64,000 nucleotides of DNA from Marsupella aquatica (Eukaryota > Plantae > Marchantiophyta). The DNA is taken from positions 6,410,234 to 6,474,233 of the forward strand of contig OZ316894.1 of assembly GCA_973895155.1 (NCBI GenBank), in the 5' to 3' direction. This document shows, one piece after another, positions 1-30,795 of this stretch. Below the pieces are notes generated by a model. The model saw only the letters and a list, made by a program, of their open reading frames with translations, made no database searches and was not told the origin of the DNA. The first letter of the stretch is position 1; each line of letters starts with the position of its first letter. The position numbers were made by a program, and so were the translations under genes.

Positions 1-1488
1 GAAATTAACAGAGTGGAGACACATGCAGGCCTTGAAAGATCCTGATATGATTTGCCCAGTGTTACAGAGAGTTCTTACTAAAGAACTCTCTTTACAGGAA
101 ATGGGTCACGAATTTACTCGACACAAATTTCAGATGCAGGTGCAGAAGGCCTTCCTCACGTGTCTACACGAGGAGAGTTGGTCAGGTTGTAAAACCAAGT
201 ACCCTGAGCATTGCACAGACAATGTGCTTAAGAATTTTGTACCTGTTTTCCAGACATGGGTAAGATTCTGTCACCTTTCTTCGAATGATTGTTTGAATTC
301 ATTTAATATTTGGAATCCTTGTTTCTAATTCTACAGTTCCTTTTTGTAGAAAGATACCACCTCCCGGAAAAAGAAGGGAGATGAGGAAGGCAAAGATCTC
401 AAGTCATTCCCGGACAAATTCAATGCGCATATTGTGCAAGCCCAAAATTGGCTATCCATGAAAACTTCTAGTCGGCAAACCCAAGAGGGGGAACTTCATC
501 CAAATTCGTTTGAGCATCCAGAGTTTGGTGATCACTATGATATTTTTACTTAAGATGCTCAGCGATTACATGAGGTGGTTCCGGGTCGGGCTTACACATT
601 AGCTTTAGTGGATATTCCCTACGGGTTTGCATTGCCTGGATGTCTTCATGAAGACACTATTGGATGGGGAACTGAGGAGATCACAAAAATGGTCCAATCG
701 TTCAAGGTGGCTACTACTGCAAAGTTGTGGCGTATTATCATTCACCACAGCCTTGACCAATATGAGGCCATCAAGACCGTTTTGAAAGCGGAGTGTAATG
801 GAGGGTTCCAGAATTGTGTGTGGTAAGAAATATTTGTTTTTGAAAAAAACAACTATTAGTTATTCATGATTTCATGAACCATGTTTCTCAATTTAAATAA
901 CTCCTTGACTTTTTGTGACTTTTCAGGGTTAAGGATAATGTGAAGAATGCTGGTGGACCAAGATTGAACAGCAACTTTGAGTGCTTTACAATTGGCTTTC
1001 ACAGCCAGGATGGTAAACGGTCATTGGAGCACTTCAATTTTGACACAAATGAATCAAGGAACAATGTGGTTGTATGCGCAGCTGTGACTAAGAAGCTGAA
1101 ACACAACGGGGATAACAAGGCAGTGAATGTTTATCAGAAACCACGTGCATTGTTAGATTGGGAAGTGAGTCATTTTAGTCAGGTTGGAGACTGGGTTTTG
1201 GATATTTGTTCAGGATCAGGGACTGGGACAACCTCCTCCTTGGCCATGGGGAGACATTGCGTTGCCATTGAGATTGACGAGCGACAGAGCAGTGTGTTGA
1301 AAGGGAGGATTCTTAACCTTGCAGATAACATTGAAGAGGAAGACGGACAGGGGGAGATGGATGAGGAGAGTGAGGAAGACATTCCTCAGGCCGGAGAGGA
1401 TAGCGTGGTTGACGATGCCACAATTGTTCCAGAATTGACGACAGGGACTTCCGGAACCGAGGAAGGGGAAGCGGTCCCTTTGGATTAG
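1..1488 (+). pseudogene. Beta-class amino-DNA methyltransferase (N6_N4_Mtase-like); 3' exons of a spliced gene with one in-frame stop
   Basis: Exons <1-259, 350-822 and 927-1488, joined by GT-AG introns that keep the frame. The catalytic motif LVDIPYG precedes CVWVK..E, QKPRALL and the SAM-binding motif GDWVLDICSGSGT, then CVAIEID; this is the beta-class order. In-frame TAA at 551-553; acidic C-terminal tail; 5' end lies outside the window. Confidence 0.85.
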
Positions 1489-1819
1489 ACTAGATAAATA
1501 GAGGGACTCGTAGCATTTGAAACCACTTGGGCTTAAGTTGGGTTATATTTTGTAAAACTTTGAGTTTGACTTAAACTCTGATCGATGAGTTTGATTTTGA
1601 TTACTTTTATAAAGTGCATATTTCAAGGTTTATACAATTGTGAGAATATCATATAAGATATGCTTAGATTTTGGTGGTAAAATTCTCTTGAGTCTAGTTT
1701 GGAAAATACATACCATTTTTTGGTGGTTTTTTGGTATACACTTTTTAATATCATGAAGATTTTGAAAAGAGAAATAAGGCTTTGGACTCATCCCTTAAGG
1801 CTTCTTGTTGTGGACTCAC

Positions 1820-2348
1820 CTGCAAATAGGTTTGTGGAGGACCGATGGGGTGACTTCAAGACAGACCCATATCATGTATGACTAGGTTTGGCATCAGATG
1901 GGATCAGCCCCTTTGCATTGGCCGGGAAGGCCCAACCATACTCAGTTTGGCCAGTAGTCCTTACAAATTACAACATCCCTCCATGGATGGCCATGAAGAA
2001 AGGTCATTTGCTGCTCTCAATGATTATCCCAGGCCCCAAGCAAGTAAAAAAGATTGATGTTTACTTGCAACCATTGTTGGAGGAGCTTCAACAACTATGG
2101 AGGGGAGTGGATTGCTATGATGGTCGAGTGCTGACGGGTGGTTTACCTCGTGAATTTAAATTAAAAGCCATCGTTATGTGGACCATACATGATCTTCCTG
2201 GTATGTTAAAATATACCTTCCCCAATATTATGCATGGTTTTTTATGGGAGATAATACACTATAGGATAATGTTATATATAAAAGTTTGCCTAGCTATTGT
2301 TTAATGTATTGATTGTGTGTGTTGTAGGGTTTGGATATATCTCTGGGT
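1820..2348 (+). pseudogene. Outer CACTA-type transposase (Transposase_21/Tnp2), 5' portion
   Basis: DPYHV*LGLASDGISPF..YSVWPVVLTNYNIPPW..PGPK..IDVYLQPLLEELQQLW..WTIHDLPG. Intron 2201-2327, then GFGYISG, which is cut by the CACTA insertion at 2349. Confidence 0.9.
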
Positions 2349-2369
2349 CACTAGTGGAAAATAGTGTCC

Positions 2370-3060
2370 TTAATGACTAGAATGAGGACTGAAAAACGAG
2401 TCATATGTACCAATATATGACTAGAGCTTTTCTGTCATATCTGCCTCGTCTTTTAGGACAGTCAATTAAGACAAATGACTAAAAATCTCACCAGTCATTT
2501 ATGGTAGTCCTAAATGACACAATATTTCTGAAATGACATGTTGTCCTAAATGACTAAATGAATGGCAGTCAGTCATTTAGGCATGTCTTTAATGACACAT
2601 ATTTAAACAAATCATATTACAACACGTGGCAACTACGCACGGTTGTCATTATATGTCATTTCAGACATGTCATAAATGACACAATAATAAATCATTTAAG
2701 GTGTCATTTAGTGTATCATTAAAGGTGTCGTACATGGTGTCATTAAAAATGTCATACAAGGTGTCATACAAGGTGTCATTGAGGGTGTCATACATGGTAT
2801 CATACATGGTGTCATTGAGGGTGTCATTGAGGGTATCATTGAGGGTGTCAAACAGGGTGTCATTGAGGGTGTCATATATAGTGTCATACATGGTGTCATT
2901 GAGGGTGTCATTGAGGGTGTCATTGAGGGTATCATATATGGTGTCATTGAGGGTGTCATATATGGTGTCATATATGGTGTCATTGAGGGTGTCATACATG
3001 GTGTCATTGAGGGTATCATTGAGGGTGTCATACAGGGTGTTTTTAAGTAATGTCATTTGG
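2370..3060. repeat. CACTA subterminal repeats: dispersed AATGAC/GTCATT motifs followed by a 12-bp tandem array (GGTGTCATTGAG / GGTGTCATAYAT)
   Basis: Roughly 28 12-bp units at ~2700-3040. They generate the spurious repetitive ORFs at 2670-3182. Confidence 0.9.
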
Positions 3061-3147
3061 GATGTATCTAAGAAGAGCTCATAGTTATATTCAAAATCAC
3101 ATACAATGAATCCACTTAAAACCTTAAACAAAGACATCACTTTGCGC

Positions 3148-3291
3148 ATCATCATTGTATTCAGAAATTCACACTCCAACATTCACAAGCTCTAATATAG
3201 AATAATTGAAAAAACAGAAATCATCATTGTATTCAAAAATTCACATTCCAACATTCACAAGCTCTAGTATAGAACAATTGAAAAAACAGAA
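3148..3291. repeat. 72-bp tandem duplication downstream of the TnpA 3' end
   Basis: ATCATCATTGTATTCA..AAAAAACAGAA at 3148-3219 and again at 3220-3291. Confidence 0.85.
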
Positions 3292-3399
3292 GTCTTTATG
3301 ATGAAGTGATAGAAAGTACACATTTTTCACTCGCATGAGTGAAACAATGGTAACCAAAATATTCAAAAATTCTCTGTTCTACATGATCAGAGAAAATGT

Positions 3400-4065
3400 T
3401 CAACACTTTCGAAGAAACCTTGCATTCCACAATGTATTCATTCCTAACACATTCCGTAAGTGGAGTTGTTTCTCTTCTTTGTTGGGCATTGGCAATGCTG
3501 CATCACCACAATACACTGCCTTAACTAATACTAGTACCCAAGGACTCTCAATCATGACACAATGAAATTTATCCTCTCCTGGTAACCCTGTCACTTCACC
3601 TCTAGCAACAACTGTAGAGCGATCCACAACGCTTCGTACTTCTACAGCATCTCCTTTTGAAAACTGCCACACAAAATTGTTAGGACAAAATAGTATCTTG
3701 TAGTACTGATTTGGGCATATCATCAATTTAAGAACATAAGCCAACTGAAAACAAATTCACCTTTGCTGCTGGATTTGGGGAGAGAACTGGTACTCGTTCA
3801 CTAGGTGAGATAGTGATAGGGGTTGATTTCTTGAATCTCTTTGAAGGCCTAGGTGGTGTAGCCTCTTGTTCCTGAATTGCATTTGACACTATATGTTCAT
3901 CTGTGACAGCAATCTCATCACTCTCACCATTACCAATGCTGCTTTGTACAACGCAAGGTTCCTGCAGTGCTCCCAAATTTGCTTCTCCCATACTTGGCTT
4001 TGGCTTCTGCCTTGTTAAAGTATCTGATTTTTCTCGCTGTGATACAGGATTCTCCCCTGAAGAAG
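3400..4065 (-). CDS. TnpA-like gene of the inner CACTA, last two exons (Tnp1/En/Spm-like C-terminal domain)
   Basis: VVARGEV...KFHCVMI..WVLVLVKAV...AALPMP...L..VLG..TLW matches the TnpA C-terminal pattern. Separated from the upstream exons by the intron that holds the Gypsy elements. Confidence 0.75.
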
Positions 4066-4514
4066 CTACCACAAAAACCAAACAATGAATGCTTAGAAAA
4101 CTTCATTCTAAATTGAAAAATAAACTATTGCATATGTAACATGTTTAGAGTATAAGTGTGACGCCGCCGGTACGGCGGTTAATGAGTGATTCAGTCTAAC
4201 TGCGCTCGGCACGCGCGTTAGGTGGGTCTTAGGCCGCTATTATTAGCATAACGACAGTATTTAGGTAATCATTAGGAGTAGGACATCATTAGGTAATAAG
4301 GGGGACTTCAGGTTCGGGCTGGCGGCGGGTCGCTATTTGCACACCCGGGTTACGAGCGTGGAGGGGCCCCTCCCTCGGGTCCGTATAACGAACTTAAGGA
4401 AGCGGCCACTGACGCACGCTGACTCAGACCGGCGGAGTGGCCGGTACACCACAAGCGTGAGCGGTTCAACCTATGGGCGTCGAGGAGACGTCGGGGATCG
4501 ACAAGCCCTCAAAG

Positions 4515-4521
4515 TATAAAA
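4515..4521 (+). promoter_or_regulatory. TATA box in the LTR of element A, upstream of the LTR-encoded ORF
   Basis: TATAAAA followed by GGGGAG, a pyrimidine-rich leader and ATG at 4623. Confidence 0.55.
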
Positions 4522-5934
4522 GGGGAGCCAACCCTTTGTAGTGCACCAGTCCATCAGTCCGCGCGCCAGCTTTGACCCCAACTCTCTCGTTCTCTCTAGG
4601 TCGCCACTACTATCTCCTCTGAATGTCGCACACGATCCTCTCCAGCTCGGCCATTCGATTCTGGACGCAGTTCCTATCTACCGGAAGGCACTTGGCCGAT
4701 TCATTGAAACACGCCAACCCGCGCCGATACGAGATCGAACGCGAATACGAGAGAGCCATCCGCCTAGCAGGACGACACCACTACGTCCTTAACTTTGACT
4801 ACCCATCTCAGAGCGAGCTTTACCGACCAGCTGAGGTATCTGGGTACTTCTTCAACGGAGACAAATATATCGGGTTCTGGGAAGCATTGCTTCGGCTTCC
4901 GGACGAGGTCTTCAATATCCCGGGTACAATCGACCTGCAGCGACATCACTTCGACCACATCCCTGCCCAGGTTCGGGCGGTCATTAACGGTGAGTCCAGT
5001 ACCAACCGTTCGACAAGGGCGTCCGCACTCGCTTCGGAGAACTTCTACCAGCACCTACAGAGCTTCATGGGAACTCGGCCATCAACCAACATGACCAACT
5101 CAGCCGGACCCATACCCGTACCCGTACCCGTGCCCATGCAACCTCAGCTTCAGCTTCAGCCTCAGCCGCAGCCTAGCCAAACCCCCCCACCTATCACCCA
5201 GCCAGCACAAGTACGCTCCGTCATCAACGTTGTGGATCTTAGCGATGACGACGAGGCTACCCCACCCTTGACCAGGCGGCCCAGAGGAACAAGCGCTCGG
5301 GGGGCCGACACTATACCGTCCCCACCCCCTGCTCTGACCCCAGGAGCGGCCCCAGCAGACAACTTGGTGACCGTGGCCGCCCCGGGCCCGTTACCAACCG
5401 TAGTGGCACTCCCCAGGCCCGATCGGGAGGATGGGGAAGTATCACCTTCCCCGAGTCAGTCACGGGGAAAGAAGAGGAAGGAATCCGCCAGTGCATCCGG
5501 GTTATCGTTGGCCACGGTAGCCGTAGCCAAGGTAACGATGCATCGCATGGGGGAAAACGTTCACAGCAACATCCTCCATCCCAAGCATGTGGTGTACCTG
5601 AAGACTCAGGGATTTGAGCACCTCGCCTCTCTCCCCTGGAACACTTGCAGGTACTACGGGGAGGACATGACAGAATTCGTCAAGAATTATGACGACGTAC
5701 GTCAACAGACTCGGCTGCGGGGAAGGAATATGTCCCTCACAGAAGAACGGCTCAAGATGATCTTCGGGTTACCCGAAGGTGACCATCGAGTCGAATCACG
5801 GGCTCCCGGGGGCAAGGGGGCCAAGTACCAATCTTCAAGTTTTCCCTCAGAGGGATCAGTAGACAACGGGTTCGTGATGAGGACCTGCCTCATGCCCGAG
5901 ATAGCTGAGCGGCTGGAGTTCCAGAGGTACGCTC

Positions 5935-8900
5935 TGTGATGCCTAGACAGGAATCACTCGGCCGGTTAAGTGGGTAAAGCAGGAAGGCACCCTAGGAACA
6001 CCTTAGTATAGGGACAAAACAAGGAAAATATAAACAATTAGGGGCAACCATGGAACCCGGGCAGAGGCCGGAGGTAAGGCTGAGGGTGAAAACCCGATTA
6101 GGGTTAGGGCGCGTTAAGCGTTGGCGGCTAGGAAGGATCAACGGGAAGAAGGACCGGCAGAGGAGAGGGGTAAGGAGCGCTTGCAGGAGATGGTGGCTCA
6201 TTTGCGAGCACGAACTAGGCAGACGACTACGGGAGGCCAACTACTGTCAACTGCTTAGGCAAGCACTCGGGGAGAGAATAGATACCGACGATCGACCTAA
6301 GGAGGGTATGAGCAACGTCAATCAAGCGGCACATTTCTGGGGATGCCTGTTCGAACGGGCAACTGAGTACATCAAGACTTACAAGGACGAGGAGTCAGAA
6401 AGGGCAGCTCGAGAACGGCAGGAGCTCGCTCGATTGTGGGAGCTACAGAAGACGGCTTTCTTAGGAGGCGAACTCATCAAGGACGAGTTCCTGTGGACGC
6501 CTACTTCCAATCAACTCGACAATCTTCTGTTTTGCAAAGACAGCGTCGTCGGCATCCGAGAGGCCATCAAGAACTGCAATGACATACACTGGGAATTAAA
6601 GGGTAGCACGGAAAGGTGGACCCAGGCAACGGTGCTAGGAGAAACCTCCACGGCAGCAGAGATGAAGAGGAAGGGGGCCGTCAACGATGAAGCCACCCCG
6701 GCAAAAAGAACGAGGTCGGCGGCACCAAAGAGGCCAGCCGAGCAGCAGAGCAGGAGGCAGGGAGAAGCCGAAGAGGAGGAGGTCGATCCCATCAAGGCCA
6801 TTCCAACCAGGGATGACACCTGGAAGGGCTGGGCGGCAACCCTACCGGTGGAGGTGCAACTACATTTTGCACGGGAGGAGGATGCATGCTTTACGGCCAT
6901 GCAGACCAAGAAGTACCAAGGCTTCATGGCCGGATCCGGCTTGGAGGCCTTTGTAAGATTACCATGGCTGAAGCCGGAGGTACCGGAGTCAGACCTATTA
7001 GAATTCGTGGGGTCATGGGAACCCGAGACCAATTGCACGAGGATATATGGGAAGGATTTCTATCTTACTCCCAAGGTAATTGCCGAAGTGTTTGGCTTGC
7101 CGATAGGCAATAAGACCAAAGTTGATACCAGGAAGACCTTGCCTGACAAGGAGTTCCGGTCGTTCCCCGGGCCATCAACGAAGAATGGCTTCTTCCGGAA
7201 CACCTGCACCAACCCGCACATAGGAGAGATGATCGACTTCTTGCGGGTGACCATGCATTGTAACTTGCCGAGGGCAGAGATCGGCAAGGCACAGGTCTAT
7301 CTGGTAGAAAGGCCAGACCCAAGCCGGGACTACAACGGGTACCTCCTCAACCAATTGAAGAAGATCTTAAAGGAGGAGCAGCAGGTAATTGGCATGGGGA
7401 GCGTGTCGCGGCTTGGCTATCACATGCCGCTGTTGTGCCGGTATGCCAGAGGTCAGACTTTTGCCCCGGTACTTCCCCTGCAGGTAAGGGCACCCGAGGA
7501 AGCTCCAACGCCAAGGCCGTTGGCTGAGAAGCCTCAACCACCTGTTAGTCCTACGATCGAGCAAGTGTTTAGGCCCAGGAAGGAAGACTTGCCGATGCAG
7601 CAACCAGGCATGCAGAGTCTGCTGAAACTACTGGAGAAAGAAAAGAAATCAGCATCGGCAACAACAACGGCAACGGCAACAATGCAGGACACTACTACAG
7701 AGGTAGGCCTACACCGGCTCACAAGAGAAAACCCCTTTGCTGGAGACAAGGAGAGAATCAGGCCGGAATCCAAGCCAGGTGTTCGAATGTACGTGGGAAC
7801 CTCAAGCTCCGAATCTGAGGCAGAATTGCCTGAAGCTCCTACCGACGAAGAGGAGAGGGAGAAGCCGGACGTCCAAGAGGTAGAGGAGGCAGTGGAGGAC
7901 TGCAGCCATGATAATTCCGGCTATGGGTCAGACCATCACGTTCCAGGAGTAAGGACCTGTGGCCGGTTTGTCCCCACACTTCCAAGGGTAGTGCGAGGGG
8001 ACCCCAACCAGCAAAGTAGCCCTGAGTCTCCCCCACCAGATGTTGCTCCCCCGAGCTTCGACGGCATAAAACAGACGGTGCAGGAATTTCAGGAGCGAAT
8101 CAAGCAGGAGGAAGAGGCCGCCCTGGCTAAGGAAAAGGATTTACCAGGAGGAGATTGGCCGGAGGACATCAGGCGGCTAGCCGAAAAAGGAAGCAAACCT
8201 CTAGCCACGATTGAAGAGATCCGCAGGACGGCTTGGGAGCAAAGGCCACGATGGGCGATGCCGATCACTTCTACTTACTCCACCTACGCTAAGAATAGAG
8301 CCATGGAGTATGGTGAGATGTGTGGGGAACTTGCGCTCGGCATCTTTGGAGAGGAGTTGGAGGTAGGACCCTTTTTCCATAGGGAGCAGTTGGAGAAGCA
8401 CCAATTAGAAGAAGCGGTGGCTTTAGAGAGAAGCAAGAAGGACGAGGTCATTCGGCGGCTTAGGAGGATGGAAGCCGAGATTGAAGATCTAAGGGCGGCC
8501 AAGAAAGCCCAAGATGAACTGCGGATTAAACGACATGAGCTGAACATCATGCAGGGGCAGTTGGACACCGCGCAGGCTGATAATCAGAATATCAAGGATA
8601 AACTAACTCAGACGCAGGGAGAGTTGGCCAACACGATCAAAGAGAGGGAGAAGTGGAAGCAAGAGCTGAAGAATACAGAGGAGGCCCACATAACAGCCAA
8701 CAGCCGGGCCATGGCGGAGACCCAAAGAAAGGAATGGGCGTTGAAAGGGGAGCTCGAGAAAATCCGCGGAGCCCTTGAGCAAAAGGAGGTCGAGTTAGGG
8801 AAATCCTATCAAGGGATTATGGCGCTGCAGCAGGAGCTTGCGTCCCTGACGGCCAGCTTCAAGACCGACCTAAGGGAGAAGGACGAGATGCTCGAACAGA

Positions 8901-9339
8901 CTTACGCCAAGATGAACCAGATGGAGTCTGTCATCATTGCAGAGCTCGACAAGGAGCTAAGAGCAACCCAGGAGGAGAGGGCTACCTTGAAGAAGGAATT
9001 GGAGGAAGCCCACAGGGAGCAGGAGGAGGCCAAAAACGAGCTGGAGGGGGCACGTAAGGACCTGGATGAAACCCAAGAGGAGTTGGAGGAAATCACGAGG
9101 AAGATGGAGAACCTACAGCGGCGGGCCGACAACCAAACAGAGCGGCTGAAGAAACAAGCCGCAGTATTTAAATGCTTAGCTGCAGCAGGTCCATCTCCCA
9201 TTGGGACAAACCAGTTACCAGGGGTGGTAATTGCCGAAGGACAAGCCGCGCCAACTGCACCAGTGCCGGAAGTAAGTGGGAAGGGGAAGGGACCAGCTAC
9301 CGAGCCACCAACGAAGAAGAAGCGGAAACCTTCAGGGTC
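5935..9339 (+). repeat. Inverted copy of the first 3405 bp of the element-B LTR (pairs with 16765-20169)
   Basis: Colinear reverse-complement match of about 99% by eye; the ORF translations differ at about a dozen residues. Confidence 0.97.
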
Positions 9340-9391
9340 CCCACTTAATTGTGAAGCGTCCTCGCGAACAACTTCATCTTCGTCCATATAG
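6050..9391 (+). CDS. LTR-encoded protein of element B, inverted copy (1113 aa, open frame, chimeric C-terminus)
   Basis: Uninterrupted ORF with a PMD-like core (IYGKDFYLTPKVIAEVFGLPIG) and a long coiled coil. The last ~16 residues come from the antisense strand of the integrase end. Confidence 0.75.
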   Translation: MEPGQRPEVRLRVKTRLGLGRVKRWRLGRINGKKDRQRRGVRSACRRWWLICEHELGRRLREANYCQLLRQALGERIDTDDRPKEGMSNVNQAAHFWGCLFERATEYIKTYKDEESERAARERQELARLWELQKTAFLGGELIKDEFLWTPTSNQLDNLLFCKDSVVGIREAIKNCNDIHWELKGSTERWTQATVLGETSTAAEMKRKGAVNDEATPAKRTRSAAPKRPAEQQSRRQGEAEEEEVDPIKAIPTRDDTWKGWAATLPVEVQLHFAREEDACFTAMQTKKYQGFMAGSGLEAFVRLPWLKPEVPESDLLEFVGSWEPETNCTRIYGKDFYLTPKVIAEVFGLPIGNKTKVDTRKTLPDKEFRSFPGPSTKNGFFRNTCTNPHIGEMIDFLRVTMHCNLPRAEIGKAQVYLVERPDPSRDYNGYLLNQLKKILKEEQQVIGMGSVSRLGYHMPLLCRYARGQTFAPVLPLQVRAPEEAPTPRPLAEKPQPPVSPTIEQVFRPRKEDLPMQQPGMQSLLKLLEKEKKSASATTTATATMQDTTTEVGLHRLTRENPFAGDKERIRPESKPGVRMYVGTSSSESEAELPEAPTDEEEREKPDVQEVEEAVEDCSHDNSGYGSDHHVPGVRTCGRFVPTLPRVVRGDPNQQSSPESPPPDVAPPSFDGIKQTVQEFQERIKQEEEAALAKEKDLPGGDWPEDIRRLAEKGSKPLATIEEIRRTAWEQRPRWAMPITSTYSTYAKNRAMEYGEMCGELALGIFGEELEVGPFFHREQLEKHQLEEAVALERSKKDEVIRRLRRMEAEIEDLRAAKKAQDELRIKRHELNIMQGQLDTAQADNQNIKDKLTQTQGELANTIKEREKWKQELKNTEEAHITANSRAMAETQRKEWALKGELEKIRGALEQKEVELGKSYQGIMALQQELASLTASFKTDLREKDEMLEQTYAKMNQMESVIIAELDKELRATQEERATLKKELEEAHREQEEAKNELEGARKDLDETQEELEEITRKMENLQRRADNQTERLKKQAAVFKCLAAAGPSPIGTNQLPGVVIAEGQAAPTAPVPEVSGKGKGPATEPPTKKKRKPSGSPLNCEASSRTTSSSSI

Positions 9392-12300
9392 TATTTCTTG
9401 AGGCGGTCATAATGGATGCGAACTGGATATACCTCTCCCGTAATGTTGGCCAATTGTACGGAGCCATTGGGGAACATCATGGTTACTCTAAAGGGTCCTA
9501 ACCAGCGAGTGTAAAGCTTTCCTGGAAACCTACTATACCTACTGTCATAAAGTAGCACAAGATCACCGGTATGAATACTAACTACTTTTAACCTTTTATC
9601 ATACTGCTGCTTCATGATATTCTGTCTATATTCTACTCTCTCGGCTGAAATCATTCTCGCTTCCTCTAAAGCTTCTAACCTATATTCTCGCTCCTTTAGG
9701 CTCTCCTCCGCTGAGGCTCTTTCCTCAATTGTAACTTGAAATGTCGGTATCTCAAGTTGCATGGGTACCAGGGCTTCTTGTCCAAAGGTTAAGAAGAAGG
9801 GTGTATGACCGGTAGTGGATTTATAGGCAAGATTGTAAGCAAAAACAGCAGCAAACAATTTATCATCCCAATCGAGTTTGTTCTGAGCTACTGTCTTGTT
9901 CAATATCTTTCCTATGATTCCGTTTGCTCATTCTGTCAACCCGTTTGCCTTTGGATGGTAGGGAGTAGTAGGCCTATGTTTAACTAAATACTGCTCATTT
10001 AAACGACTAATTATATCATTCAAAAAATGGGTTCCTCTATCACTAACTAATTCTAGGGGTGCTCCATACCTGGTGAAGATCTGCTCATACATGAATCTAG
10101 CCATCGTAATTGCATCATCCTTCGTTGTTGGTCTGGCCTCTATTCATTTAGTTGCATAATCCGTAGCCAGGATTATATACTTGTTCCGTCGAGGGTGGGT
10201 CAGTGGTTTCAGAGGTCCAATGTAATCAATACCCCACTTCTCGAATGGTGCCAGAGGTAGAATAGGGTGCAGTGGATGCCTGGTGGACGCCCTTGGTCCT
10301 CCCGCTCGTTGACAAGGATCGCATTGTTTGATAAACTGATAGACATCTTTGTGCAAGGTGGGCCACCAGTAACCGGCATTTAATATCTTCTTAGACGTGG
10401 TTACTGGGGCAAAATGTCCTCCGGCCTCCTCTCCATGCATGGCCCGTAGGACTCGTTTTACCTCTCTCTTTTCCAAACATCTTTGAATCGTGCCGTTGAT
10501 TCCATGCTTGTGCAGTATGCCTTTAATGCACTGATACCGTCTGACCTTCCGCACAAAGACTGCGGCTTGCTCTCGGCTTAATCCTGGCTGTAATCTGGAA
10601 GTGCTGAGAAATTGTAAAATCTCAGGGTACCATGTACCAGCTATTTCCACAACGAATAGCTCCTCGTCGGGGAATCGATCATCAATGCAATCCGTGGCAG
10701 GTTTACCTGTGATCCTTGAAAAGAAGTCGGCATTGGCATGTAACTTTCCCGGCTTGATCCTCAGCTCATAGTCAAACTCCTGTAATAGCAAAATCCATCT
10801 TGCTACTCTGCCTGTAAGGTCCGGCTTATTGACTAGGTACTTCAAACTTTCATGATCAGTATGAAAGATTACCTTGTACCCTAGTAAATAATGCCTAAAC
10901 TTTTTACAAGAATAAATGACTCCTAATGCTTCTCTTTCCGTGGTAGAGTAGTTCCGTTCGGCATCGGCAAGCTGACGGCTTGCGAAGTATATGGGATGGT
11001 CCCTTCCTTTCTCATCCAACTGACTTAGTACTGAGCCAATACAGAAGCCCGAGACATCTACAAAAACATGAAAATCTTTGTTCCAGTCCGGTGCTATCAT
11101 GACTGGGGCCTCTACTAACATCTGCTTCAATTCTACCACCGCTGTGACTCGTTCGGGTGTGGGTTCGAAGTCTGCTCCTGCCTTGAGCATATTGGTTAAT
11201 GGTAAAGCCAGCTTGGCAAAATCCTTGATGAACCGGCGATAGTAACCAATGCATCCCAAGAAGGATCTTACATCCTTTATGTTCTTAGGTTGCATGATAT
11301 CTAGCCATACTGCTAGCTTACCTTTGTCAATCTCAATGCCCTTCCTTGATACCTTGTGACCTAGTAGCACCCCCTCGGTTACTGCAAAAAAACATTTATC
11401 TGGGTGTAACTTGAGACCCACCTCTCTACATCTCATGAAGGTTTTCCTGAGGTATTTAGCATGTTTCGATGCCTTCCCGAATACTGCAAAGTCATCAATG
11501 AAGATTTCCATGAACTTTCTCAAGTAATCATGAAAAATGTTCACCATTAATCGTTGGAACATAGCTGGTGCGTTGCAGAGTCCAAACGGCATACGATTGA
11601 AGACATAGATCCCCCATTCCGTGATGAAGGCCGTCTTGATTTGGTCTTCCTGCCGAATCCTGATTTGGTTATAACCAGAGTATCCATCCATGAATGAATA
11701 TAGTTCATGACTGGCTACCATGTCTAGTACCATATCAGTAAACGGTAAAGGAAAATGGTCTTTTAATGTTGCTTCATTCAGCTTCCTGTAATCCTGACAA
11801 ACCCGGATCTTGGGTTTACCATCGGGTCCAGCTTTCTTGGGAACTATCACAATTGGAGACACCCAGTCTGAATGCAGGACTGGAGTGATGAATCCAGCTT
11901 CCACTAGTTTGTCGATTTCTGTTTTGACCAGCAGGGAATACTTCGGGTTCATCCTTTGAATTGGTTGTCGAAATGATTTGGCTCCTAACATGAGATCAAT
12001 TCGATGTTCCCCTAGTGTTGGATCTACTCTCTTTAGATCTTGGTGACTCCATGCAAACACATCCTGAAATTCAATCAATAAGTCACTGATCTCTTTCTCG
12101 AGCTCAGGTGCTAGGTTTCTCCCTAAGTTCAGTTCTCTTCCCTCTCCTAAGTCGAGCTTCCGATATTGCCATGCTTGGATCATATTAATCTGCTTCTTCA
12201 AATTCGGGTCCAGTTCGGCTTCCAGTCTCTCTAATCTCATACCTCCATAAACTAGGATCTCGGCTGGACTAGCCGAGTCGGTCCCTTCCTTGGTGTCCAT

Positions 12301-12588
12301 AGATTGTCCCCTTACCGGTCTATTCGGTTTTGAATTAGTGGTCGGCTCCCCTTCCTGCCTTGGCTCTGGATCGTGTCTGTCCATCTCATCCACTTCTTGC
12401 TCCTGAGAGTTAGGCCGTTGTGCTCTCTCGGCTTCTAATAGGGCCTCAATTTGTTCTGCCCTCGTAATCGGCTTGTATGCCGATCCCTTGGTATTTAATT
12501 CCTTGCCGATGATCGATGGCGTTGTGGACCCCGTCGGCTCTGCCACAACGCCTGCAGAAAATCCACTGTCCCTGCTACTGCTCCCCAC
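9340..12588 (-). pseudogene. pol: Element B pol: reverse transcriptase, RNase H, integrase
   Basis: RT: SPIVIVPKK, DYRKLN, DGYSGYNQI, MPFGLCNAP, FIDD. RH: DVSG, EREAL, TDHESL. INT: H..GGH/CDPC zinc finger, WGIDYIGP, SDRGTHF, GPF motif. In-frame stops at 10144 and 9928. Confidence 0.95.
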
Positions 12589-15488
12589 TTAGCCGTTTCA
12601 TCCAATTGGTCTACATCCTTTACTTCCTCCGGAATTGCAGCTAAAAAGGTGGATTCTATTGTAAAGCAGTCCTCGACCTCTTCGTCTTCTTCTTCCAAGT
12701 CACCTTCCATTGGTTCTTGCCATAATCCGCTGGGGGGTACCTCTGGTCCAAAGACACCTTCTTCGGTTAGGTTAGTGAGGCATTCTAACCAACGTACTTC
12801 ATCGGCTGACTCCAGTCCACTATCGTACCCATCTACTTCCCTTATGCTTTTCCTACGGTCATCCTTAGTGTCCCAGGATACCGTGATAGAGGGGGTCCCG
12901 AAAGTGAACTGCTTTTTACCCCAATCTTCTATTACCTCGGCTAGGTACAGCCATGGCCTACCAATCAATAGCCGGAATGACGTAGGATTTACCGGCTTCA
13001 TTACTACATAGTTAATGCTAAAGAAGATACCTCCTATCTCTGTCTTGATGCCGGTTAACACTCCCGTCGGAATGACCTGATATCCATTGGCCATGTTCAA
13101 CACTCTTCCAGTCATCTCCGGTGTTAGACCCCACCCTTTTGCTGTTGAATCAATCATAATACATACCCCTGATCCTCCATCGATGGGTACCCGTAGTAAT
13201 AATTCTCCTTGAATCATTAATGGTAATGCTGGGGCTCCTTGATCTTCTTCTATCATTAGTACGTCGGATCTGGTTGCTACCTTGGGTAATCTCGGCTTGC
13301 CGAGAATAGCCTTCCTTAATTGCTTCCGGAAGTACGGGCTATTTTTCAATAGTTGACCTACTGTTGCCGAGACTCTAGATTCTAGTACATCTTTAGCCAG
13401 GTCATAGGGAACAATCGGCTTCTCTTCTGGTGGTGTTTCCGTCTTGGATTCGGCCAGTTTTGCCACGCTAGTCTCCACAGCTGTTGGGTCTTCCGAAGCA
13501 AACAATGCTTTTGCTCGTTTTACATCCTTGGCAATGGCTTCGGTATTCTCCAGGGTTTCTAATTCTCTTAGTTGTTCCTTAACACTAGCCGTAACAGAGG
13601 GGTAAAACAACTTAGGATGATCTCGATTGAAGTCGCTATCTTGTGAAGGATTGGTTTCACTAGTGGGCTCATGGCTTACCTGTATTGCCGGAGCCCTCCC
13701 TTCTCCTTCTGTTGATGTTGACGAAGAGTCGATCCTTTCCTCCGTAACCTTCCCTTTATTTTTGGCCAGCCCATCCCACCTTTCCTTCCTTCTGGTAGAT
13801 CGAGTAGAGACCCGGTAGCAATCATGATCTAAATCCTCCTCTGAGAAGGTTGATAGGGCTTCGGCCTCATCATCAGATGGTACGAACTCTGCCTCGGCAT
13901 CCTCTTGCCATCCTAGTTCGATGTGGTTGATTTGAACTCCTCCGGGGGTAGTACCTGGCGGTAAGATCTTGATCGGCAAAAGCTTATGATTTGCGGCCAG
14001 GCCTGCCAACCAAGTAGGACATTGCCCTAGCATATGACCTTCCTGTCGGCATCCCATACATAGCTGAGCTGGTTGTCCATCACCCTGTTTGCGTGCATTC
14101 GGGCATTCTCTAGCAAAATGGCCAGGTTGACCACAATTATAGCACGCCGCAAATCTTTGCACATTCGGCCTAGGAGGTACTGACGGGTTCTGAATAATCC
14201 GAGGATACATCTCTCCTGGATTGTTCCTTAACCCTGACCACAGAGATGCAGGTCTGTTGGATAGGTCTCGTGCTCCAATCTCACTGATGCCGAAAACACT
14301 ATCAGCGGCATCTCCTAAAAAGTACTCTACTTCTCCCTGACATGGTCTGATCTCGGCCACATGCCGAACATGATTAGTATTAAGCTTAGGACACGCATCT
14401 TTATGGTGTCCGGTTTTATAACATAAGGCACACCATACAGAGCTATCCTCCTGTACTACCTTCTTCTTTGGTTTTACCTCTGCAATGATAGCCTTAAGTT
14501 GCTCGGTAAGGGCTACGATGTTATCTGGTGGCTTAGCCTCCATCTTGACTTTCGTCTTCCCTCTCCTTCTGCCCTTCCTTTTCCTAGTTTTTTCTTCTTC
14601 AGAACTAGAAGATGACTCACTCTTGCTACTCCCACTATCCGAGCTTGACTTATCACTTCTAGACTTCTTGGGATGTTTCTTCTTCTTATCTTTTTTCTTA
14701 TGGGGTGATCCCTCCTCTGATGAGGAACTCTCAGACTTAAGCTGTTTCTTCCGGCTTGTGATATCTGCATTAATGTATAATTGAATATCCTTAATTGCTT
14801 CGGCTAAAGTCTCCGGGTTCTCCTTCCTAATTGCAAAACTCATCTTCTGTGGCAAAGCATTCACCAACCATTGAAGTTGCATACCTTCAGATGCATTGGT
14901 CTTTGTACGTCTTACCAGTTTCTGAAAGCGTTGCAAGAACTTCCTGAAGGATTTGTTCTCCTTGAACCGAAGTTGTCCCAACTTCAGCACTGCTAGTTCT
15001 GAAGTTCCAATGGGTCGAAACTCCTTAACAAAGAGTGTTTTGAAGATATCCCAGATGGCTTGATCTTCCACATCTAATGCTCTGTACCAAGGCCTAGCCT
15101 CACCCTTGAACAGGCCGGGAAGAATCTGCATCTTGATGGCCGATTCTCCATTTGCTGCAGCGGTTCCCTCGAAATCATCCAACCATTCGTCCGGATCCTC
15201 ATCTCCTCTCCCATGAAATGCCTTGTAATGTATGCGCGACCGCTAGCTCAATCTGGTCCCTGGCCTCTCGTCTGGCCGTGCCTCTGGTTCCCCCATGTCG
15301 GTTGGAGACTCACTTCTCCTTACCGACTCTTCTTCTGGTATGTCTTCTTCGACGCCACTTCCAGTTTCGGAGCTACCAGCTCTTTCTGCCCCTCTCAGTC
15401 GCTGTGTATCATGCCACCCGGCGAGCTGCTGCAGTCGAGCTCTCTCCCGTTGAATCACTCTTTCTTCCCTCGACATAAGGTCAGTCAT
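12495..15488 (-). pseudogene. gag: Element B gag-protease
   Basis: DPDEWLDDFE gag N-terminal domain, three CCHC knuckles (CALCYKTGHHKDAC, CYNCGQPGHFAREC, CMGCRQEGHMLGQC), protease IDGGSG and LIGRPWL. In-frame stop at 15243; in a different frame from pol. Confidence 0.92.
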
Positions 15489-15532
15489 TACCTACGCTTC
15501 CGTTCTAACTTCATATCTCACGGCTTAAGAAA

Positions 15533-15553
15533 TGCCCCCTCCATCTAGCGCCA
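15533..15553 (-). promoter_or_regulatory. Primer-binding site of element B
   Basis: TGGCGCTAGATGGAGGGGGCA just after the LTR end ..CACCACA; identical to the PBS of element A. Confidence 0.85.
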
Positions 15554-15557
15554 AAAA

Positions 15558-18500
15558 TGTGGTGCGTCCCATGGCTCCCTAAACCCAAGAAACCCCCCAG
15601 CTCAAGCCGATTCCCGCAGGTTTCGTGCTTGGCGAGGCCGTTTCCGCGGCTTAGCGGCATGGGACGCTGCTAACCTTCTACTACTACTATTAACATTTTA
15701 CACACATATACTGGACAGATCCTTCATCGGGTCATGAGATACATAGCCGGCCTAATATAGGCCTTCCCCTGTCTTCCCCTGTCTTCCCCTCCGTCTTGTT
15801 AGGTATGTTTGGATTCCGCTGCCGGAATGATCCCCAATAGGCTTGGTTAAGCCGTTAAGACCTCTCTCAGCTCGACACATCCAACTCTCACTCCCCTGCT
15901 TACTTTCCTTCCTTCTGTTGATGTGGGCACTCTTCACACAAGTTAATGCGACACACAAATAGCAAAATGACTCATTCTGACTGAGTCATACCATGCACTT
16001 GCCATACAAACAGTACATCTCATACACAAGTTCTGCGAACTAAGCCGTGAGGCCAACTCTATTCAGCTCTTAGGCATGAGGAAACATGAATATACACAAG
16101 GGTCACTGTATGACTAACCGAGAGCTTCTCGTACTACTTGATCCCAGCCCGGCTGGTGCAAACTAAAAACTTGCCATAGAAGAGGCCCTGAGCTCCCCGC
16201 TGCCCAGGTACTTATCCTGGTAGTGGATCCGCCATTCTTTGCATCGTAAGCCTAATCTACTTAACAGTAATCTACTTGCCCGAATCTACCTATGTACAGC
16301 AAGGCAGGAGCACAAGTGTTGCTCCTACCAGTGGGACCGCAATCCCACTAAGCTAAGTGTCAGGGCCGCTCCTGGTTCTGATCCTAATCCTAAACGTGGA
16401 GATCCGCGCCCGCCCTGCCCACTCACGCCTCCTCCCTCCACGTCCACCCTCCCTAAAAGGAACGGCGCCCTTGCACCGTCACGACACCGGTGGTGGATCC
16501 TTAATGGACGCCCCCAACGCTTCCTCCTCAGCCATTGCCGTAGGTTCATTCTCTGACAGATTACCTGCCCTTGACTGAGTCAACTCTCCATCGGCCTGAC
16601 TGGGTCCACCTTCGGCTTCAGCCTCGACACCGGCCTCGGCAATACCCACGGCTTCGGCCTCCCCTTCCCCTAGGGTAGTTGGATCCTTAGCCGTGACCCT
16701 GTCTGGGGTCGGTGCTGGGTCTACCTCCTTGATCACCACGGCCTGTGAAGTCGTATTACTCCTTGACCCTGAAGGTTTCCGCTTCTTCTTCGTTGGTGGC
16801 TCGGCAGCTGGTCCCTTCCCCTTCCCACTTACTTCCGGCACTGGTGCAGTTGGCGCGGCTTGTCCTTCGGCAATTACCACCCCTGGTAACTGGTTTGTCC
16901 CAACGGGAGATGGACCTGCTGCAGCTAAGCATTTAAATACTGCGGCTTGTTTCTTCAGCCGCTCTGTTTGGTTGTCGGCCCGCCGCTGTAGGTTCTCCAT
17001 CTTCCTCGTGATTTCCTCCAACTCCTCTTGGGTTTCATCCAGGTCCTTACGTGCCCCCTCCAGCTCGTTTTTGGCCTCCTCCTGCTCCCTGTGGGCTTCC
17101 TCCAATTCCTTCTTCAAGGTAGCCCTCTCCTCCTGGGTTGCTCTTAGCTCCTTGTCGAGCTCTGCAATGATGACAGACTCCATCTGGTTCATCTTGGCGT
17201 AAGTCTGTTCGAGCATCTCGTCCTTCTCCCTTAGGTCGGCCTTGAAGCTGGCCGTCAGGGACGCAAGCTCCTGCTGCAGCGCCATAATCCCTTGATAGGA
17301 TTTCCCTAACTCGACCTCCTTCTGCTCAAGGGCTCCGCGGATTTTCTCGAGCTCCCCTTTCAACGCCCATTCCTTTCTTTGGGTCTCCGCCATGGCCCGG
17401 CTGTTGGCTGTTATGTGGGCCTCCTCTGTATTCTTCAGCTCTTGCTTCCACTTCTCCCTCTCTTTGATCGTGTCGGCCAACTCTCCCTGCGTCTGAGTTA
17501 GTTTATCCTTGATATTCTGATTATCAGCCTGCGCGGTGTCCAACTGCCCCTGCATGATGTTCAGCTCATGTCGTTTAATCCGCAGTTCATCTTGGGCTTT
17601 CTTGGCCGCCCTTAGATCTTCAATCTCGGCTTCCATCCTCCTAAGCCGCCGAATGACCTCGTCCTTCTTGCTTCTCTCTAAAGCCACCGCTTCTTCTAAT
17701 TGGTGCTTCTCCAACTGCTCCCTATGGAAAAAGGGTCCTACCTCCAACTCCTCTCCAAAGATGCCGAGCGCAAGTTCCCCACACATCTCACCATACTCCA
17801 TGGCTCTATTCTTAGCGTAGGTGGAGTAAGTAGAAGTGATCGGCATCGCCCATCGTGGCCTCTGCTCCCAAGCCGTCCTGCGGATCTCTTCAATCGTGGC
17901 TAGAGGTTTGCTTCCTTTTTCGGCTAGCCGCCTGATGTCCTCCGGCCAATCTCCTCCTGGTAAATCCTTTTCCTTAGCCAGGGCGGCCTCTTCCTCCTGC
18001 TTGATTCGCTCCTGAAATTCCTGCACCGTCTGTTTTATGCCGTCGAAGCTCGGGGGAGCAACATCTGGTGGGGGAGACTCAGGGCTACTCTGCTGGTTGG
18101 GGTCCCCTCGCACTACCCTTGGAAGTGTGGGGACAAACCGGCCACAGGTCCTTACTCCTGGAACGTGATGGTCCGACCCATAGCCGGAATTATCATGGCT
18201 GCAGTCCTCCACTGCCTCCTCTACCTCTTGGACGTCCGGCTTCTCCCTCTCCTCTTCGTCGGTAGGAGCTTCAGGCAATTCTGCCTCAGATTCGGAGCTT
18301 GAGGTTCCCACGTACATTCGAACACCTGCCTTGGATTCCGGCCTGATTCTCTCCTTGTCTCTAGCAAAGGGGTTTTCTCTTGTGAGCCGGTGTAGGCCTA
18401 CCTCTGTAGTAGTGTCCTGCATTGTTGCCATTGCCGTTGTTGTTGCCGATGCCGATTTCTTTTCTTTCTCCAGTAGTTTCAGCAGACTCTGCATGCCTGG

Positions 18501-20169
18501 TTGCTGCATCGGCAAGTCTTCCTTCCTGGGCCTAAACACCTGCTCGATCGTAGGACTAACAGGTGGTTGAGGCTTCTCAGCCAACGGCCTTGGCGTTGGA
18601 GCTTCCTCGGGTGCCCTTACCTGCAGGGGAAGTACCGGGGCAAAAGTCTGACCTCTGGCATACCGGCACAACAGCGGCATGTGATAGCCAAGCCGCGACA
18701 CGCTCCCCATGCCGATTACCTGCTGCTCCTCCTTTAAGATCTTCTTCAATTGGTTGAGGAGGTACCCGTTGTAGTCCCGGCTTGGGTCTGGCCTTTCTGC
18801 CAGATAGACCTGTGCCTTGCCGATCTCTGCCCTCGGCAAGTTACAATGCATGGTCACCCGCAAGAAGTCGATCATCTCTCCTATGTGCGGGTTGGTGCAG
18901 GTGTTCTGGAAGAAGCCATTCTTCGTTGATGGCCCGGGGAACGACCGGAACTCCTTGTCAGGCAAGGTCTTCCTGGTATCAACTTTGGTCTTATTGCCTA
19001 TCGGCAAGCCAAACACTTCGGCAATTACCTTGGGAGTAAGATAGAAATCCTTCCCATATATCCTCGTGCAATTGGTCTCGGGTTCCCATGACCCCACGAA
19101 TTCTAATAGGTCTGACTCCGGTACCTCCGGCTTCAGCCATGGTAATCTTACAAAGGCCTCCAAGCCGGATCCGGCCATGAAGCCTTGGTACTTCTTGGTC
19201 TGCATGGCCGTAAAGCATGCATCCTCCTCCCGTGCAAAATGTAGTTGCACCTCCACCGGTAGGGTTGCCGCCCAGCCCTTCCAGGTGTCATCCCTGGTTG
19301 GAATGGCCTTGATGGGATCGACCTCCTCCTCTTCGGCTTCTCCCTGCCTCCTGCTCTGCTGCTCGGCTGGCCTCTTTGGTGCCGCCGACCTCGTTCTTTT
19401 TGCCGGGGTGGCTTCATCGTTGACGGCCCCCTTCCTCTTCATCTCTGCTGCCGTGGAGGTTTCTCCTAGCACCGTTGCCTGGGTCCACCTTTCCGTGCTA
19501 CCCTTTAATTCCTAGTGTATGTCGTTGCAGTTCTTGATGGCCTCTCGGATGCCGACGACGCTGTCTTTGCAAAACAGAAGATCGTCGAGTTGATTGGAAG
19601 TAGGCGTCCACAGGAACTCGTCCTTGATGAGTTCGCCTCCTAAGAAAGCCGTCTTCTGCAGCTCCCACAATCGAGCGAGCTCCTGCCGTTCTCGAGCTGC
19701 CCTTTCTGACTCCTCGTCCTCGTAAGTCTTGATGTACTCAGTTGCCCGTTCGAACAGGCATCCCCAGAAATGTGCCGCTTGATTGACGTTGCTCATACCC
19801 TCCTTAGGTCGATCGTCGGTATCTATTCTCTCCCCGAGTGCTTGCCTAAGCAGCTGACAGTAGTTGGCCTCCCATAGTCGTCTGCCTAGTTCGTGCTCGC
19901 AAATGAGCCACCATCTCCTGCAAGCGCTCCTTACCCCTCTCCTCTGCCGGTCCTTCTTCCCGTTGATCCTTCCTAGCCGCCGATGCTTAACGCGCCCTAA
20001 CCCTAATCGGGTTTTCACCCTCAGCCTTACCTCCGGCCTCTGCCCGGGTTCCATGGTTGCCCCTAATTGTTTATATTTTCCTTGTTTTGTCCCTATACTA
20101 AGGTGTTCCTAGGGTGCCTTCCTGCTTTACCCACTTAACCGGCCGAGTGATTCCTGTCTAGGCATCACA
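15558..20169 (-). repeat. 5' LTR of element B (4612 bp)
   Basis: Runs from the TSD-flanked terminus TGTGATGC to GCACCACA (7/8 inverted match), immediately before the PBS. Confidence 0.88.
16479..20054 (-). pseudogene. LTR-encoded ORF of element B, full-length copy (1191 codons, one premature stop)
   Basis: ORFs 19512-20054 and 16479-19472 are in the same frame. TAG at 19512-19514 corresponds to TGG at 6590-6592 in the other copy. Confidence 0.85.
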
Positions 20170-22416: not shown

Positions 22417-22437
22417 TGGCGCTAGATGGAGGGGGCA
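22417..22437 (+). promoter_or_regulatory. Primer-binding site of element A
   Basis: TGGCGCTAGATGGAGGGGGCA, 12 bp after the LTR end. Confidence 0.85.
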
Positions 22438-22527
22438 CTCTACATATCGTAGAGGGGAGACATGTGCGTATTCACCTAGGCAGGATACATCAGGACGTAG
22501 TACTAACCATTGCATTTATATGAGTAA

Positions 22528-23769: not shown

Positions 23770-23809
23770 TAATCAAAATTGAATATATACATAGGTTTTC
23801 ATTACATAC

Positions 23810-25480: not shown

Positions 25481-25736
25481 TTAGAGAATATCAATGAATG
25501 AATGACAAGTATCAAAAACCAATTCATATTGCTGATGAGCAATATTAACACATCTTTGCACATTCAAAAAAACATGCAAGATTATACTCACATGAAATTG
25601 AAATTTTCTCCAAATATCTCCCTGAATTTTCTATTGTTGTCTGCTACCTTCTTATTTCGTTCCTCTTCATATGGAGGTATTCGCTGCATTCACTGCTAGA
25701 CTATGGCATGCCATGTTAGTATGATTCCACTCCCAA

Positions 25737-30745: not shown

Positions 30746-30795
30746 TACTTTCTACTATGCAGTGTTTTCTACACAACTGAAGGCTTAATTATGAT

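What the first reader, a model, noticed from the sequence alone, without database searches (positions are those of the whole stretch)
350..1488. Intron-containing beta-class N6A/N4C DNA methyltransferase directly upstream of a transposase
Seen: DIPY catalytic motif before the DICSGSGT SAM motif, spliceosomal introns, one TAA, and ~330 bp to the transposase. Established: this family is mainly prokaryotic/phage; eukaryotic N4C methyltransferases of bacterial origin are known in bdelloid rotifers and Marchantia. Inference: transposons may be the vehicle or reservoir for such enzymes in plants. The motif alone cannot distinguish 6mA from 4mC activity.
Basis: partly seen in the sequence, partly recalled or inferred. 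Interest (0 to 1): 0.8.

Follow-up and report, generated by a model that had tools for sequence, protein, structure and literature searches.

The report
Plant transposon ParB-methylase, dead copy
This is a broken, intron-containing copy of a many-copied plant gene for a bacterial-type DNA methylase that likely carries a ParB-like DNA-binding part and is predicted to mark adenines in its own mobile element, a kind of transposon gene so far reported from algae.

Summary
The gene is real: a three-exon beta-class DNA amino-methyltransferase (DIPY 611-622, SAM motif 1201-1221, PF01555 above cut-off). It has two GT-AG introns shared with an independent contig, and it runs off the window's 5' end. 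The TAA at 551-553 looks peculiar to this copy; contigs from four runs read C at 551. It is not a Marchantia or bdelloid 4mC enzyme: 63 of 63 readable catalytic motifs start with D, and the best matches are N6-adenine enzymes (CcrM, HpyAVI). Full-length relatives (Chara, liverworts, Ginkgo) add a ParB-like N-terminus; fern relatives share the methylase domain. That is the architecture of the accessory gene of Ectocarpus Sola1-1 and other algal transposons. The gene lies in a high-copy repeat and is under purifying selection (dN about 0.2, dS saturated). The link to the neighbouring CACTA transposase is weak: that gene's intron has about tenfold lower depth, so the adjacency is probably a nested insertion. 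New lead: the palindrome TCATGAWWTCATG(A) sits in intron 2 of both copies and five times in the relative, a candidate self-binding site. Verdict: new land-plant member of a known, untested kind; this copy is dead.

The parts
2..259 (+). Exon A (open at the window's 5' end): helical region just before the methylase; in relatives it closes the ParB-like N-terminal half
   Evidence: Matches P0002 residues 18 onward and L001 3469-3729; the equivalent stretch lies in the region aligned weakly to KorB/Spo0J/SopB DNA-binding domains
260..349 (+). Intron 1, GT-AG, 90 nt, phase 0
   Evidence: same position in L001
350..822 (+). Exon B: linker, premature TAA (551-553), catalytic motif IV DIPY (611-622)
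   Evidence: 551 reads C in all laid depth of four runs
823..926 (+). Intron 2, GT-AG, 104 nt, phase 2
   Evidence: same position in L001
864..877 (.). Near-perfect 14-nt palindrome TCATGATTTCATGA in intron 2; candidate binding site of the ParB-like part (inferred)
   Evidence: Only site in the 64-kb window; five sites in L001, one in the same intron, chance mean 0.06 matches
927..1491 (+). Exon C: YQKP (1132-1143), SAM-binding motif DICSGSGTG (from 1201), acidic tail, stop TAG
   Evidence: PF01555 E 1.6e-8
1492..1800 (.). 3' non-coding part of the methylase-bearing repeat; probable junction with the transposase fragment at about 1795-1810
   Evidence: Depth equal to the methylase gene's in X5 (96-124); contigs of the transposase family start matching at 1808-1814
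1800..2348 (+). CACTA (EnSpm) transposase fragment, Transposase_21, with a stop at 1879-1881 and an intron at 2201-2327; N-terminal part absent
   Evidence: PF02992 E 1.2e-32
2349..35024 (-). Second, nested CACTA element (CACTA terminal inverted repeats, GGT target duplication) that splits the transposase fragment
   Evidence: loose ends at 35033 that resemble the 2328-2348 exon
35025..35451 (+). Continuation of the split transposase; broken again at about 35451
   Evidence: PF02992 positions 137-198; in-frame join; loose ends

Best explanation
This is a dead copy (premature stop) of a spliced, many-copied plant gene whose intact product likely joins a ParB-like DNA-binding region to a beta-class methyltransferase, is likely an accessory gene of a DNA transposon, and is predicted to methylate adenine (6mA) in or near its own element. 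Shown: exon structure, beta-class motifs, the stop, high copy level, conserved introns, purifying selection, a family spanning Chara to Ginkgo. Inferred, with odds: the N-terminal half is ParB-like (0.8); the carrier is a DNA transposon (0.8) but probably not the CACTA copy next to it, which it seems to have interrupted at about 1795-1810 (0.65); intact copies are catalytically active (0.6); the product is 6mA rather than 4mC (0.7 if active); the ParB-like part recognises the element's own palindrome TCATGAWWTCATGA and brings the enzyme to the element's DNA, as self-marking or anti-silencing (0.35).
For: Family: 415 relatives at E<=0.001 among 50%-identity representatives. Named ones are 6 Calypogeia, 13 Chara, 2 Riccia, 2 Adiantum and 1 Ginkgo gene models. 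L001 and the long relatives carry an N-terminal region with a GG[NG]H motif. In two predicted models the best matches over that region are ParB proteins: PadC Z 6.4 (rmsd 3.6, 94 aligned), pNOB8 ParB-N 5.7 (5.4, 205), KorB 5.4 (3.8, 99), Spo0J 4.7 (4.3, 163). The first Atlas structure row for P0002 is a phage ParB_N + N6_N4_Mtase cluster, aligned over the methylase only. Adenine: 63 of 65 proteins spanning motif IV have D first, 2 have a gap, 49 have D-x-P-Y. Profile E-values: HpyAVI 6e-17 and CcrM 8e-17, against bdelloid N4CMT 2e-6 and PvuII 2e-3. Fold Z: CcrM 24.6, BceJIV 23.4, N4CMT 21.2, PvuII 20.0. Mobility: an X5 contig over 647-1322 has depth 100 against 5-6 in unique DNA. Selection: window against L001 gives dN 0.22 and dS about 2.3 in the core. 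Palindrome: five sites in 4.8 kb, 0 of 200 shuffles reach that, kept in the same intron although synonymous sites are saturated. Precedent: Ectocarpus Sola1-1_Ec32 and Bostrychia Plavaka PAG2/PAG3.
Against: The ParB fold matches are all under Z 8, a range the tool calls common, and Pfam and PHROGs find no ParB domain in the long relatives. The ends and the transposase of the carrier were not seen: the 5' part is outside the window and L001 stops inside the gene. Depth is a sum over contigs and not a copy number. A first-position D does not exclude 4mC (M.BamHI, recalled), and the fold Z gap to 4mC enzymes is only 3-4 units. Some relatives have eroded motifs (DFPC 6, DLPR 3, others), and L001 has its own stop. 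No complete stop-free copy from this organism was seen. The palindrome pattern was chosen after seeing the two sequences, and a single site in the 64-kb window is not above chance (11 of 100 shuffles).
Confidence: 0.6

Rival explanations
1. The methylase is true cargo of the adjacent CACTA element, lying upstream of its transposase in one mobile unit, like the red algal Plavaka accessory genes.
For: Same strand, about 310 nt apart, with an ATG at 1753 in frame with the transposase core. Total depth at 1871 in X5 (99.8) equals the methylase depth. The nested CACTA element also has an extra gene (PHD fingers) upstream of its transposase. Giant transposons can keep moving with nested inserts.
Against: The bin holding the transposase intron (2209-2346) has depth 10, 161 and 1321 in X5, X2 and X3, against 96-124, 1131-3702 and 7801-24029 for the bins of the methylase's 3' spacer. 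An X5 contig with 5 differences in 201 nt matches only 1810-2010 of its 421 letters, and a diverged one starts at 1808. The transposase N-terminus is missing, and no good splice acceptor precedes 1800 (sequence).
Confidence: 0.25
2. The family writes 4mC, like Marchantia DN4MT1, and transposons are a reservoir for plant N4-cytosine enzymes.
For: Same Pfam family and fold; N4CMT (Z 21.2) and PvuII (Z 20.0) are close behind the adenine enzymes; the nearest named relative is from a liverwort.
Against: No S/T-PPY motif in 63 readable motifs, whereas DN4MT1 has TSPPY and N4CMT SPPY. DN4MT1 has no extra domains. Sequence profile scores favour N6 enzymes by about ten orders of magnitude.
Confidence: 0.15
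3. The protein is kept as a DNA-binding or structural helper of transposition, and its methylase domain is on the way to being catalytically dead.
For: 14 of 63 readable motifs depart from D-x-P-Y. Earlier scan notes describe plant, animal and dinoflagellate relatives without the motif (unchecked). A second, very degenerate candidate lies at 36619-39280.
Against: In this lineage D-x-P-Y, YQKP and the DxxxGSG motif are retained, and the core has the lowest dN.
Confidence: 0.2
4. It is bacterial or phage contamination, or a recent isolated gene transfer.
For: Nearest large clusters by features and structure are phage and bacterial methylases.
Against: Two spliceosomal introns shared with a second contig; plant transposons on its flank; nested among land-plant sequences with Chara next (quick tree, SH-aLRT 93/91/84); no close relative by pattern scan in prokaryote genomes or viral contigs.
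Confidence: 0.02

Closest known systems
ParB-like + N4C/N6A methyltransferase accessory gene of Ectocarpus Sola1-1_Ec32 (PMC12477816; passages read)
   Same: Same two-domain architecture in the family, eukaryotic gene in mobile DNA, same proposed self-binding and self-methylating role. [quoted passage not shown]
   Different: Here in land plants and Chara; carrier class not established; sequence homology to the Ectocarpus protein not tested; a candidate target palindrome is identified here.
Plavaka (EnSpm/CACTA) accessory genes PAG2 and PAG3 of the red alga Bostrychia (bioRxiv 10.1101/2025.02.11.637652; section 8 and passages read)
   Same: PF01555 methylase and a ParB-like domain carried by DNA transposons, swapped among transposon families, with inverted repeats proposed as binding sites.
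   Different: There the methylase is fused to SET and the ParB part to a 2OG oxygenase, in two genes; here they are one gene, and none of 69 relatives scanned has a SET domain.
Phage ParB_N + N6_N4_Mtase fusion proteins; CcrM, M1.HpyAVI, M.BceJIV
   Same: Beta-class fold and motif order; first Atlas structure row is the phage fusion cluster.
   Different: Spliceosomal introns, a much diverged ParB-like half that Pfam misses, about 20% identity to CcrM.
Marchantia DN4MT1 (bioRxiv 10.1101/2021.02.12.428880; passages) and bdelloid N4CMT (PMC8885841, PMC10406627; passages)
   Same: Eukaryotic PF01555 enzymes of prokaryotic origin, beta class.
   Different: They are domesticated low-copy 4mC writers with (T)SPPY; DN4MT1 has no extra domain and N4CMT has a chromodomain. 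This family has D-x-P-Y, a ParB-like half and many dispersed, often broken copies.

Membership tests
Beta-class DNA amino-methyltransferase (PF01555) | Catalytic motif IV before SAM motif I | tested here: met
   DIPY 611-622, DICSGSG 1201-1221
Beta-class DNA amino-methyltransferase (PF01555) | Score above Pfam cut-off and beta-class fold | tested here: met
   35.3 bits against 26.7; model of relative P0039 against CcrM Z 24.6, rmsd 2.6, 228 aligned
Beta-class DNA amino-methyltransferase (PF01555) | Open reading frame in this copy | tested here: not met
   TAA at 551-553, upstream of the catalytic motif
Beta-class DNA amino-methyltransferase (PF01555) | Methyl transfer to DNA | not testable with these tools
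   needs an assay
ParB-like + methyltransferase transposon accessory proteins (Sola1-1_Ec32 type) | N-terminal ParB-like domain | tested here: inconclusive
   Several ParB entries lead the matches over this region but at Z 3.6-6.4; no Pfam or PHROG ParB hit; Atlas features point to DUF3723 at 0.96
ParB-like + methyltransferase transposon accessory proteins (Sola1-1_Ec32 type) | C-terminal N4C/N6A methyltransferase domain | tested here: met
ParB-like + methyltransferase transposon accessory proteins (Sola1-1_Ec32 type) | Lies between the ends of a DNA transposon | tested here: inconclusive
   High depth over gene, introns and spacer; ends not seen, no partner for the junction sequence in the window or L001
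ParB-like + methyltransferase transposon accessory proteins (Sola1-1_Ec32 type) | Sequence homology to the algal proteins | not tested
   the Ectocarpus and Bostrychia sequences were not fetched
Cargo of the adjacent CACTA element | Amplified together with the transposase copy | tested here: not met
   transposase intron 3-18 times shallower than the methylase's 3' spacer in three runs; indirect
Cargo of the adjacent CACTA element | Enclosed by that element's terminal inverted repeats | not testable with these tools
   5' side outside the window, 3' side broken at 35451; no genome held
Marchantia DN4MT1 / bdelloid N4CMT (4mC writers) | (T)SPPY catalytic motif | tested here: not met
   0 of 63 readable motifs start with S or T
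Marchantia DN4MT1 / bdelloid N4CMT (4mC writers) | No extra domain (DN4MT1) or a chromodomain (N4CMT) | tested here: not met
   long N-terminal region in relatives; no chromodomain in 69 scanned
Marchantia DN4MT1 / bdelloid N4CMT (4mC writers) | Groups with them in a tree | not tested
   their sequences were not in the tree
Plavaka PAG2 | SET domain fused to the methylase | tested here: not met
   0 of 69 relatives scanned

The most novel reading that the evidence does not exclude
Land-plant and charophyte transposons have carried, since before land plants arose, a working phage-derived ParB-methylase that loads at a parS-like palindrome (TCATGAWWTCATGA) inside its own element and writes 6mA there. 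This would be a bacterial-style self-recognition and anti-silencing system and an enzyme source of local 6mA in plant genomes.
Probability: 0.2. Interest if true: 0.85.

Novelty: new member of a known kind. Interest (0 to 1): 0.5.

Why it matters
[quoted passage not shown] This finding extends the kind to Chara, liverworts, a fern and Ginkgo. It shows a lineage that keeps the catalytic motifs under purifying selection at high copy number, and it offers a concrete candidate target site. That makes the self-methylation idea directly testable in plants, where VANDAL is the only self-modifying transposon named in the papers read. It also warns that PF01555 hits in plant genomes are not automatically DN4MT1-like 4mC enzymes. 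This particular copy is a pseudogene.

Tried and rejected
No whole genome is held, and L001's record is not searchable, so linkage across copies could not be counted. No RNA holder listed among 7 runs: no evidence either way on expression. Pattern scans of viral contigs and prokaryote genomes found no relative; they detect close relatives only. The metagenome scan gave 1 locus from 120 candidate stretches. No Rfam family in 1-4200. The continuation of the transposase beyond 35451 was not found in the window. A terminal repeat partner for the junction sequence before 1795 was not found in the window or L001. The junction reads CCC then TTAA, which recalls Harbinger or Sola ends from memory; the paper on Sola ends was not held, so this is untested. 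The second ParB/methylase-like candidate at 36619-39280 was not significant: hhalign E 0.16; HMM scores 4.0 and -0.8 bits against best shuffles of 3.9 and 2.6. High CATG frequency was set aside as a possible CpG-decay effect. The tree is the quick one, with 76 of 204 proteins kept (those covering 150 or more profile positions), midpoint root and no known enzymes; two motif labels printed on it (P0002, P0089) were regex errors, corrected. Searches returned nothing usable and were redone. Literature: ten searches found no report of this family in land plants. The final Cell version of the Marchantia paper was not held, Iyer 2011 was not read, and no supplements were opened; any of these may already list the plant members. 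Iyer 2016 (PMC4738411; section 8 and passages) lists no streptophyte clade of this architecture in the parts read. PMC12344493, PMC12730594 and PMC13076208 were seen as passages only and added nothing on this family.

Full report
Observation. The gene has three exons in the window, 2-259, 350-822 and 927-1491, separated by GT-AG introns at 260-349 and 823-926. DIPY lies at 611-622, YQKP at 1132-1143 and DICSGSG at 1201-1221. The last exon scores 35.3 bits on PF01555 against a cut-off of 26.7. There is one internal stop, TAA at 551-553. The splice model has independent support. A Calypogeia fissa protein (CAM6129466.1, P0002) is colinear across all three exons, with 252 of 380 residues identical. 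A metagenome contig, L001, has both introns at the same codons. The gene runs off the window's 5' end. The host is a land plant, likely a bryophyte (inferred from the nearest named relative and the plant-type transposons); I did not try to name it.

The stop belongs to this copy. Contigs from four runs (three organisms by code) laid on 1-4140 read C at 551 in all their depth and T at 553 in nearly all, which gives a sense codon. Contigs are short, so a complete intact copy was not seen.

The family. The last exon finds 415 representatives at E<=0.001, 63 at 1e-10. Of 20 of them looked up, 7 carry an organism name. With the two later searches, named members are 6 gene models of Calypogeia on contigs of six different lengths, 13 of Chara braunii, 2 of Riccia sorocarpa, 2 of Adiantum nelumboides and 1 of Ginkgo. 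Many are partial. A quick tree puts the window with Calypogeia (SH-aLRT 93) inside a group holding the Riccia, Ginkgo and Adiantum rows (91), with the Chara rows next (84). That suggests long residence in streptophytes, with moderate support and no true root. Against L001, dN is 0.22 and dS about 2.3 in the core; over all codons dS is saturated. The lineage has been under purifying selection.

Architecture. L001 and the long relatives extend several hundred residues upstream, with a GG[NG]H motif. Pfam and PHROGs do not name this part. In a model of a 789-residue relative the best matches over it are ParB proteins: PadC Z 6.4, pNOB8 ParB-N 5.7, KorB 4.9, Spo0J 4.7. A second model, of the L001 exon, ranks KorB first and second (Z 5.4, 4.9) with Spo0J, ParB and SopB further down. 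These Z values are individually weak; their agreement is the evidence. The Atlas links this region to DUF3723 by features, and its first structure row for P0002 is a phage ParB_N + N6_N4_Mtase cluster, aligned over the methylase. So the family is likely a ParB-like + beta-methylase fusion of ultimately phage type.

6mA or 4mC. Of 65 proteins spanning motif IV (the window, near-duplicates and a few prokaryote-like rows included), 63 have D first, 2 a gap and none S or T; 49 have D-x-P-Y. The family profile scores M1.HpyAVI 6e-17 and CcrM 8e-17, but bdelloid N4CMT 2e-6 and PvuII 2e-3. Fold Z runs CcrM 24.6, BceJIV 23.4, MboIIA 21.9, N4CMT 21.2, PvuII 20.0. DN4MT1 has TSPPY and no added domains; N4CMT has SPPY. 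Adenine is the better guess, about 0.7, and is untested.

Context. Downstream is a CACTA transposase fragment (PF02992). It lacks its N-terminus and has a stop at 1879. It is split at 2348 by a second CACTA element, 2349-35024, with terminal repeats and a GGT duplication. It resumes in frame at 35028 and breaks again at about 35451. The methylase unit is a repeat: in X5 one contig over 647-1322 has depth 100 and the spacer bins 96-124, against 5-6 in unique DNA. But it does not seem to be amplified with this transposase copy. The bin holding the transposase intron has depth 10, 161 and 1321 in X5, X2 and X3; the spacer bins have 96-124, 1131-3702 and 7801-24029. An X5 contig with 5 differences in 201 nt matches only 1810-2010 of its 421 letters and, as I read its coordinates, departs to the left; a diverged contig starts at 1808. 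Against this reading, summed depth at 1871 in X5 equals the methylase's, and depth is not a copy number. I put nesting at 0.65. The carrier's class stays open.

A candidate target. TCATGAWWTCATG occurs at five sites in L001 (10 strand matches, shuffles mean 0.06): four upstream and one in intron 2. The window has one site, in the same intron, 864-877. Alone that site is not above chance (11 of 100 shuffles), and the pattern was picked after inspection. Its retention in an otherwise unalignable intron is the point. A 14-nt palindrome is what a ParB-type dimer would bind (established for parS; inferred here).

Comparison with the known. An earlier scan note pointed to Ectocarpus, and I checked the paper. 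[quoted passage not shown] Bostrychia Plavaka elements carry a PF01555+SET gene and a ParB+2OG gene beside inverted repeats. So the kind is known and its function is proposed, not shown. Ten literature searches found no land-plant report, with the gaps listed under Tried and rejected.

Verdict. A real gene, a dead copy, of a known but untested kind of transposon accessory gene, here in land plants with catalytic motifs intact in the family and a testable target site. New member of a known kind; interest 0.5.

Noticed in passing
window 30796-31683 (-), inside the nested CACTA element 2349-35024: An ORF with NSD-type PHD fingers (PF22908 E 2e-8) lies upstream of that element's transposase: a possible chromatin-reader accessory gene.
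   Followed up: no
window 35452-47000: A separate multi-copy block (depth about 30 times unique DNA in X1, low in X5) holding an F-box-like ORF, a long ORF with an EGQHT motif followed by a degenerate methylase-like stretch (not significant), a KE-rich repeat protein, a Ulp1 protease, three NIF phosphatase ORFs and an SNF2 fragment. Possibly a second giant element with a dead ParB-methylase-like gene.
   Followed up: partly
window about 4143-24000: Nested LTR retrotransposon sequence with gag, RT, RNase H and integrase zinc-finger hits and extra coiled-coil ORFs; 5935-9339 and 16765-20169 form a 3405-nt inverted repeat at 99%.
   Followed up: no
L001 2-691 (-): An ORF transcribed away from the ParB-methylase gene, no Pfam hit; two of the palindromes lie in it. 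It could be the start of the carrier's transposase, as in Sola1-1_Ec32.
   Followed up: partly
window 691-1242, run X6: In organism C depth jumps to 1700-13000 over the catalytic core against 10-100 on either side, with many loose ends at the intron edges: a more distant, very abundant subfamily.
   Followed up: no
P0015 (Chara braunii CBR_g41648): One gene model holds two ParB-methylase units in tandem.
   Followed up: no
P0009, P0013, P0187: Close relatives from metagenome contigs are single ORFs across the intron 2 position: intron loss or assembled transcripts.
   Followed up: no
window 47007-48340; 59672-64000; 50670-51089: A very high-depth short repeat; 83-nt and about 570-nt tandem units with CACTA-like subterminal sequence nearby; a weak plastocyanin-like hit with a 30-nt repeat.
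   Followed up: no
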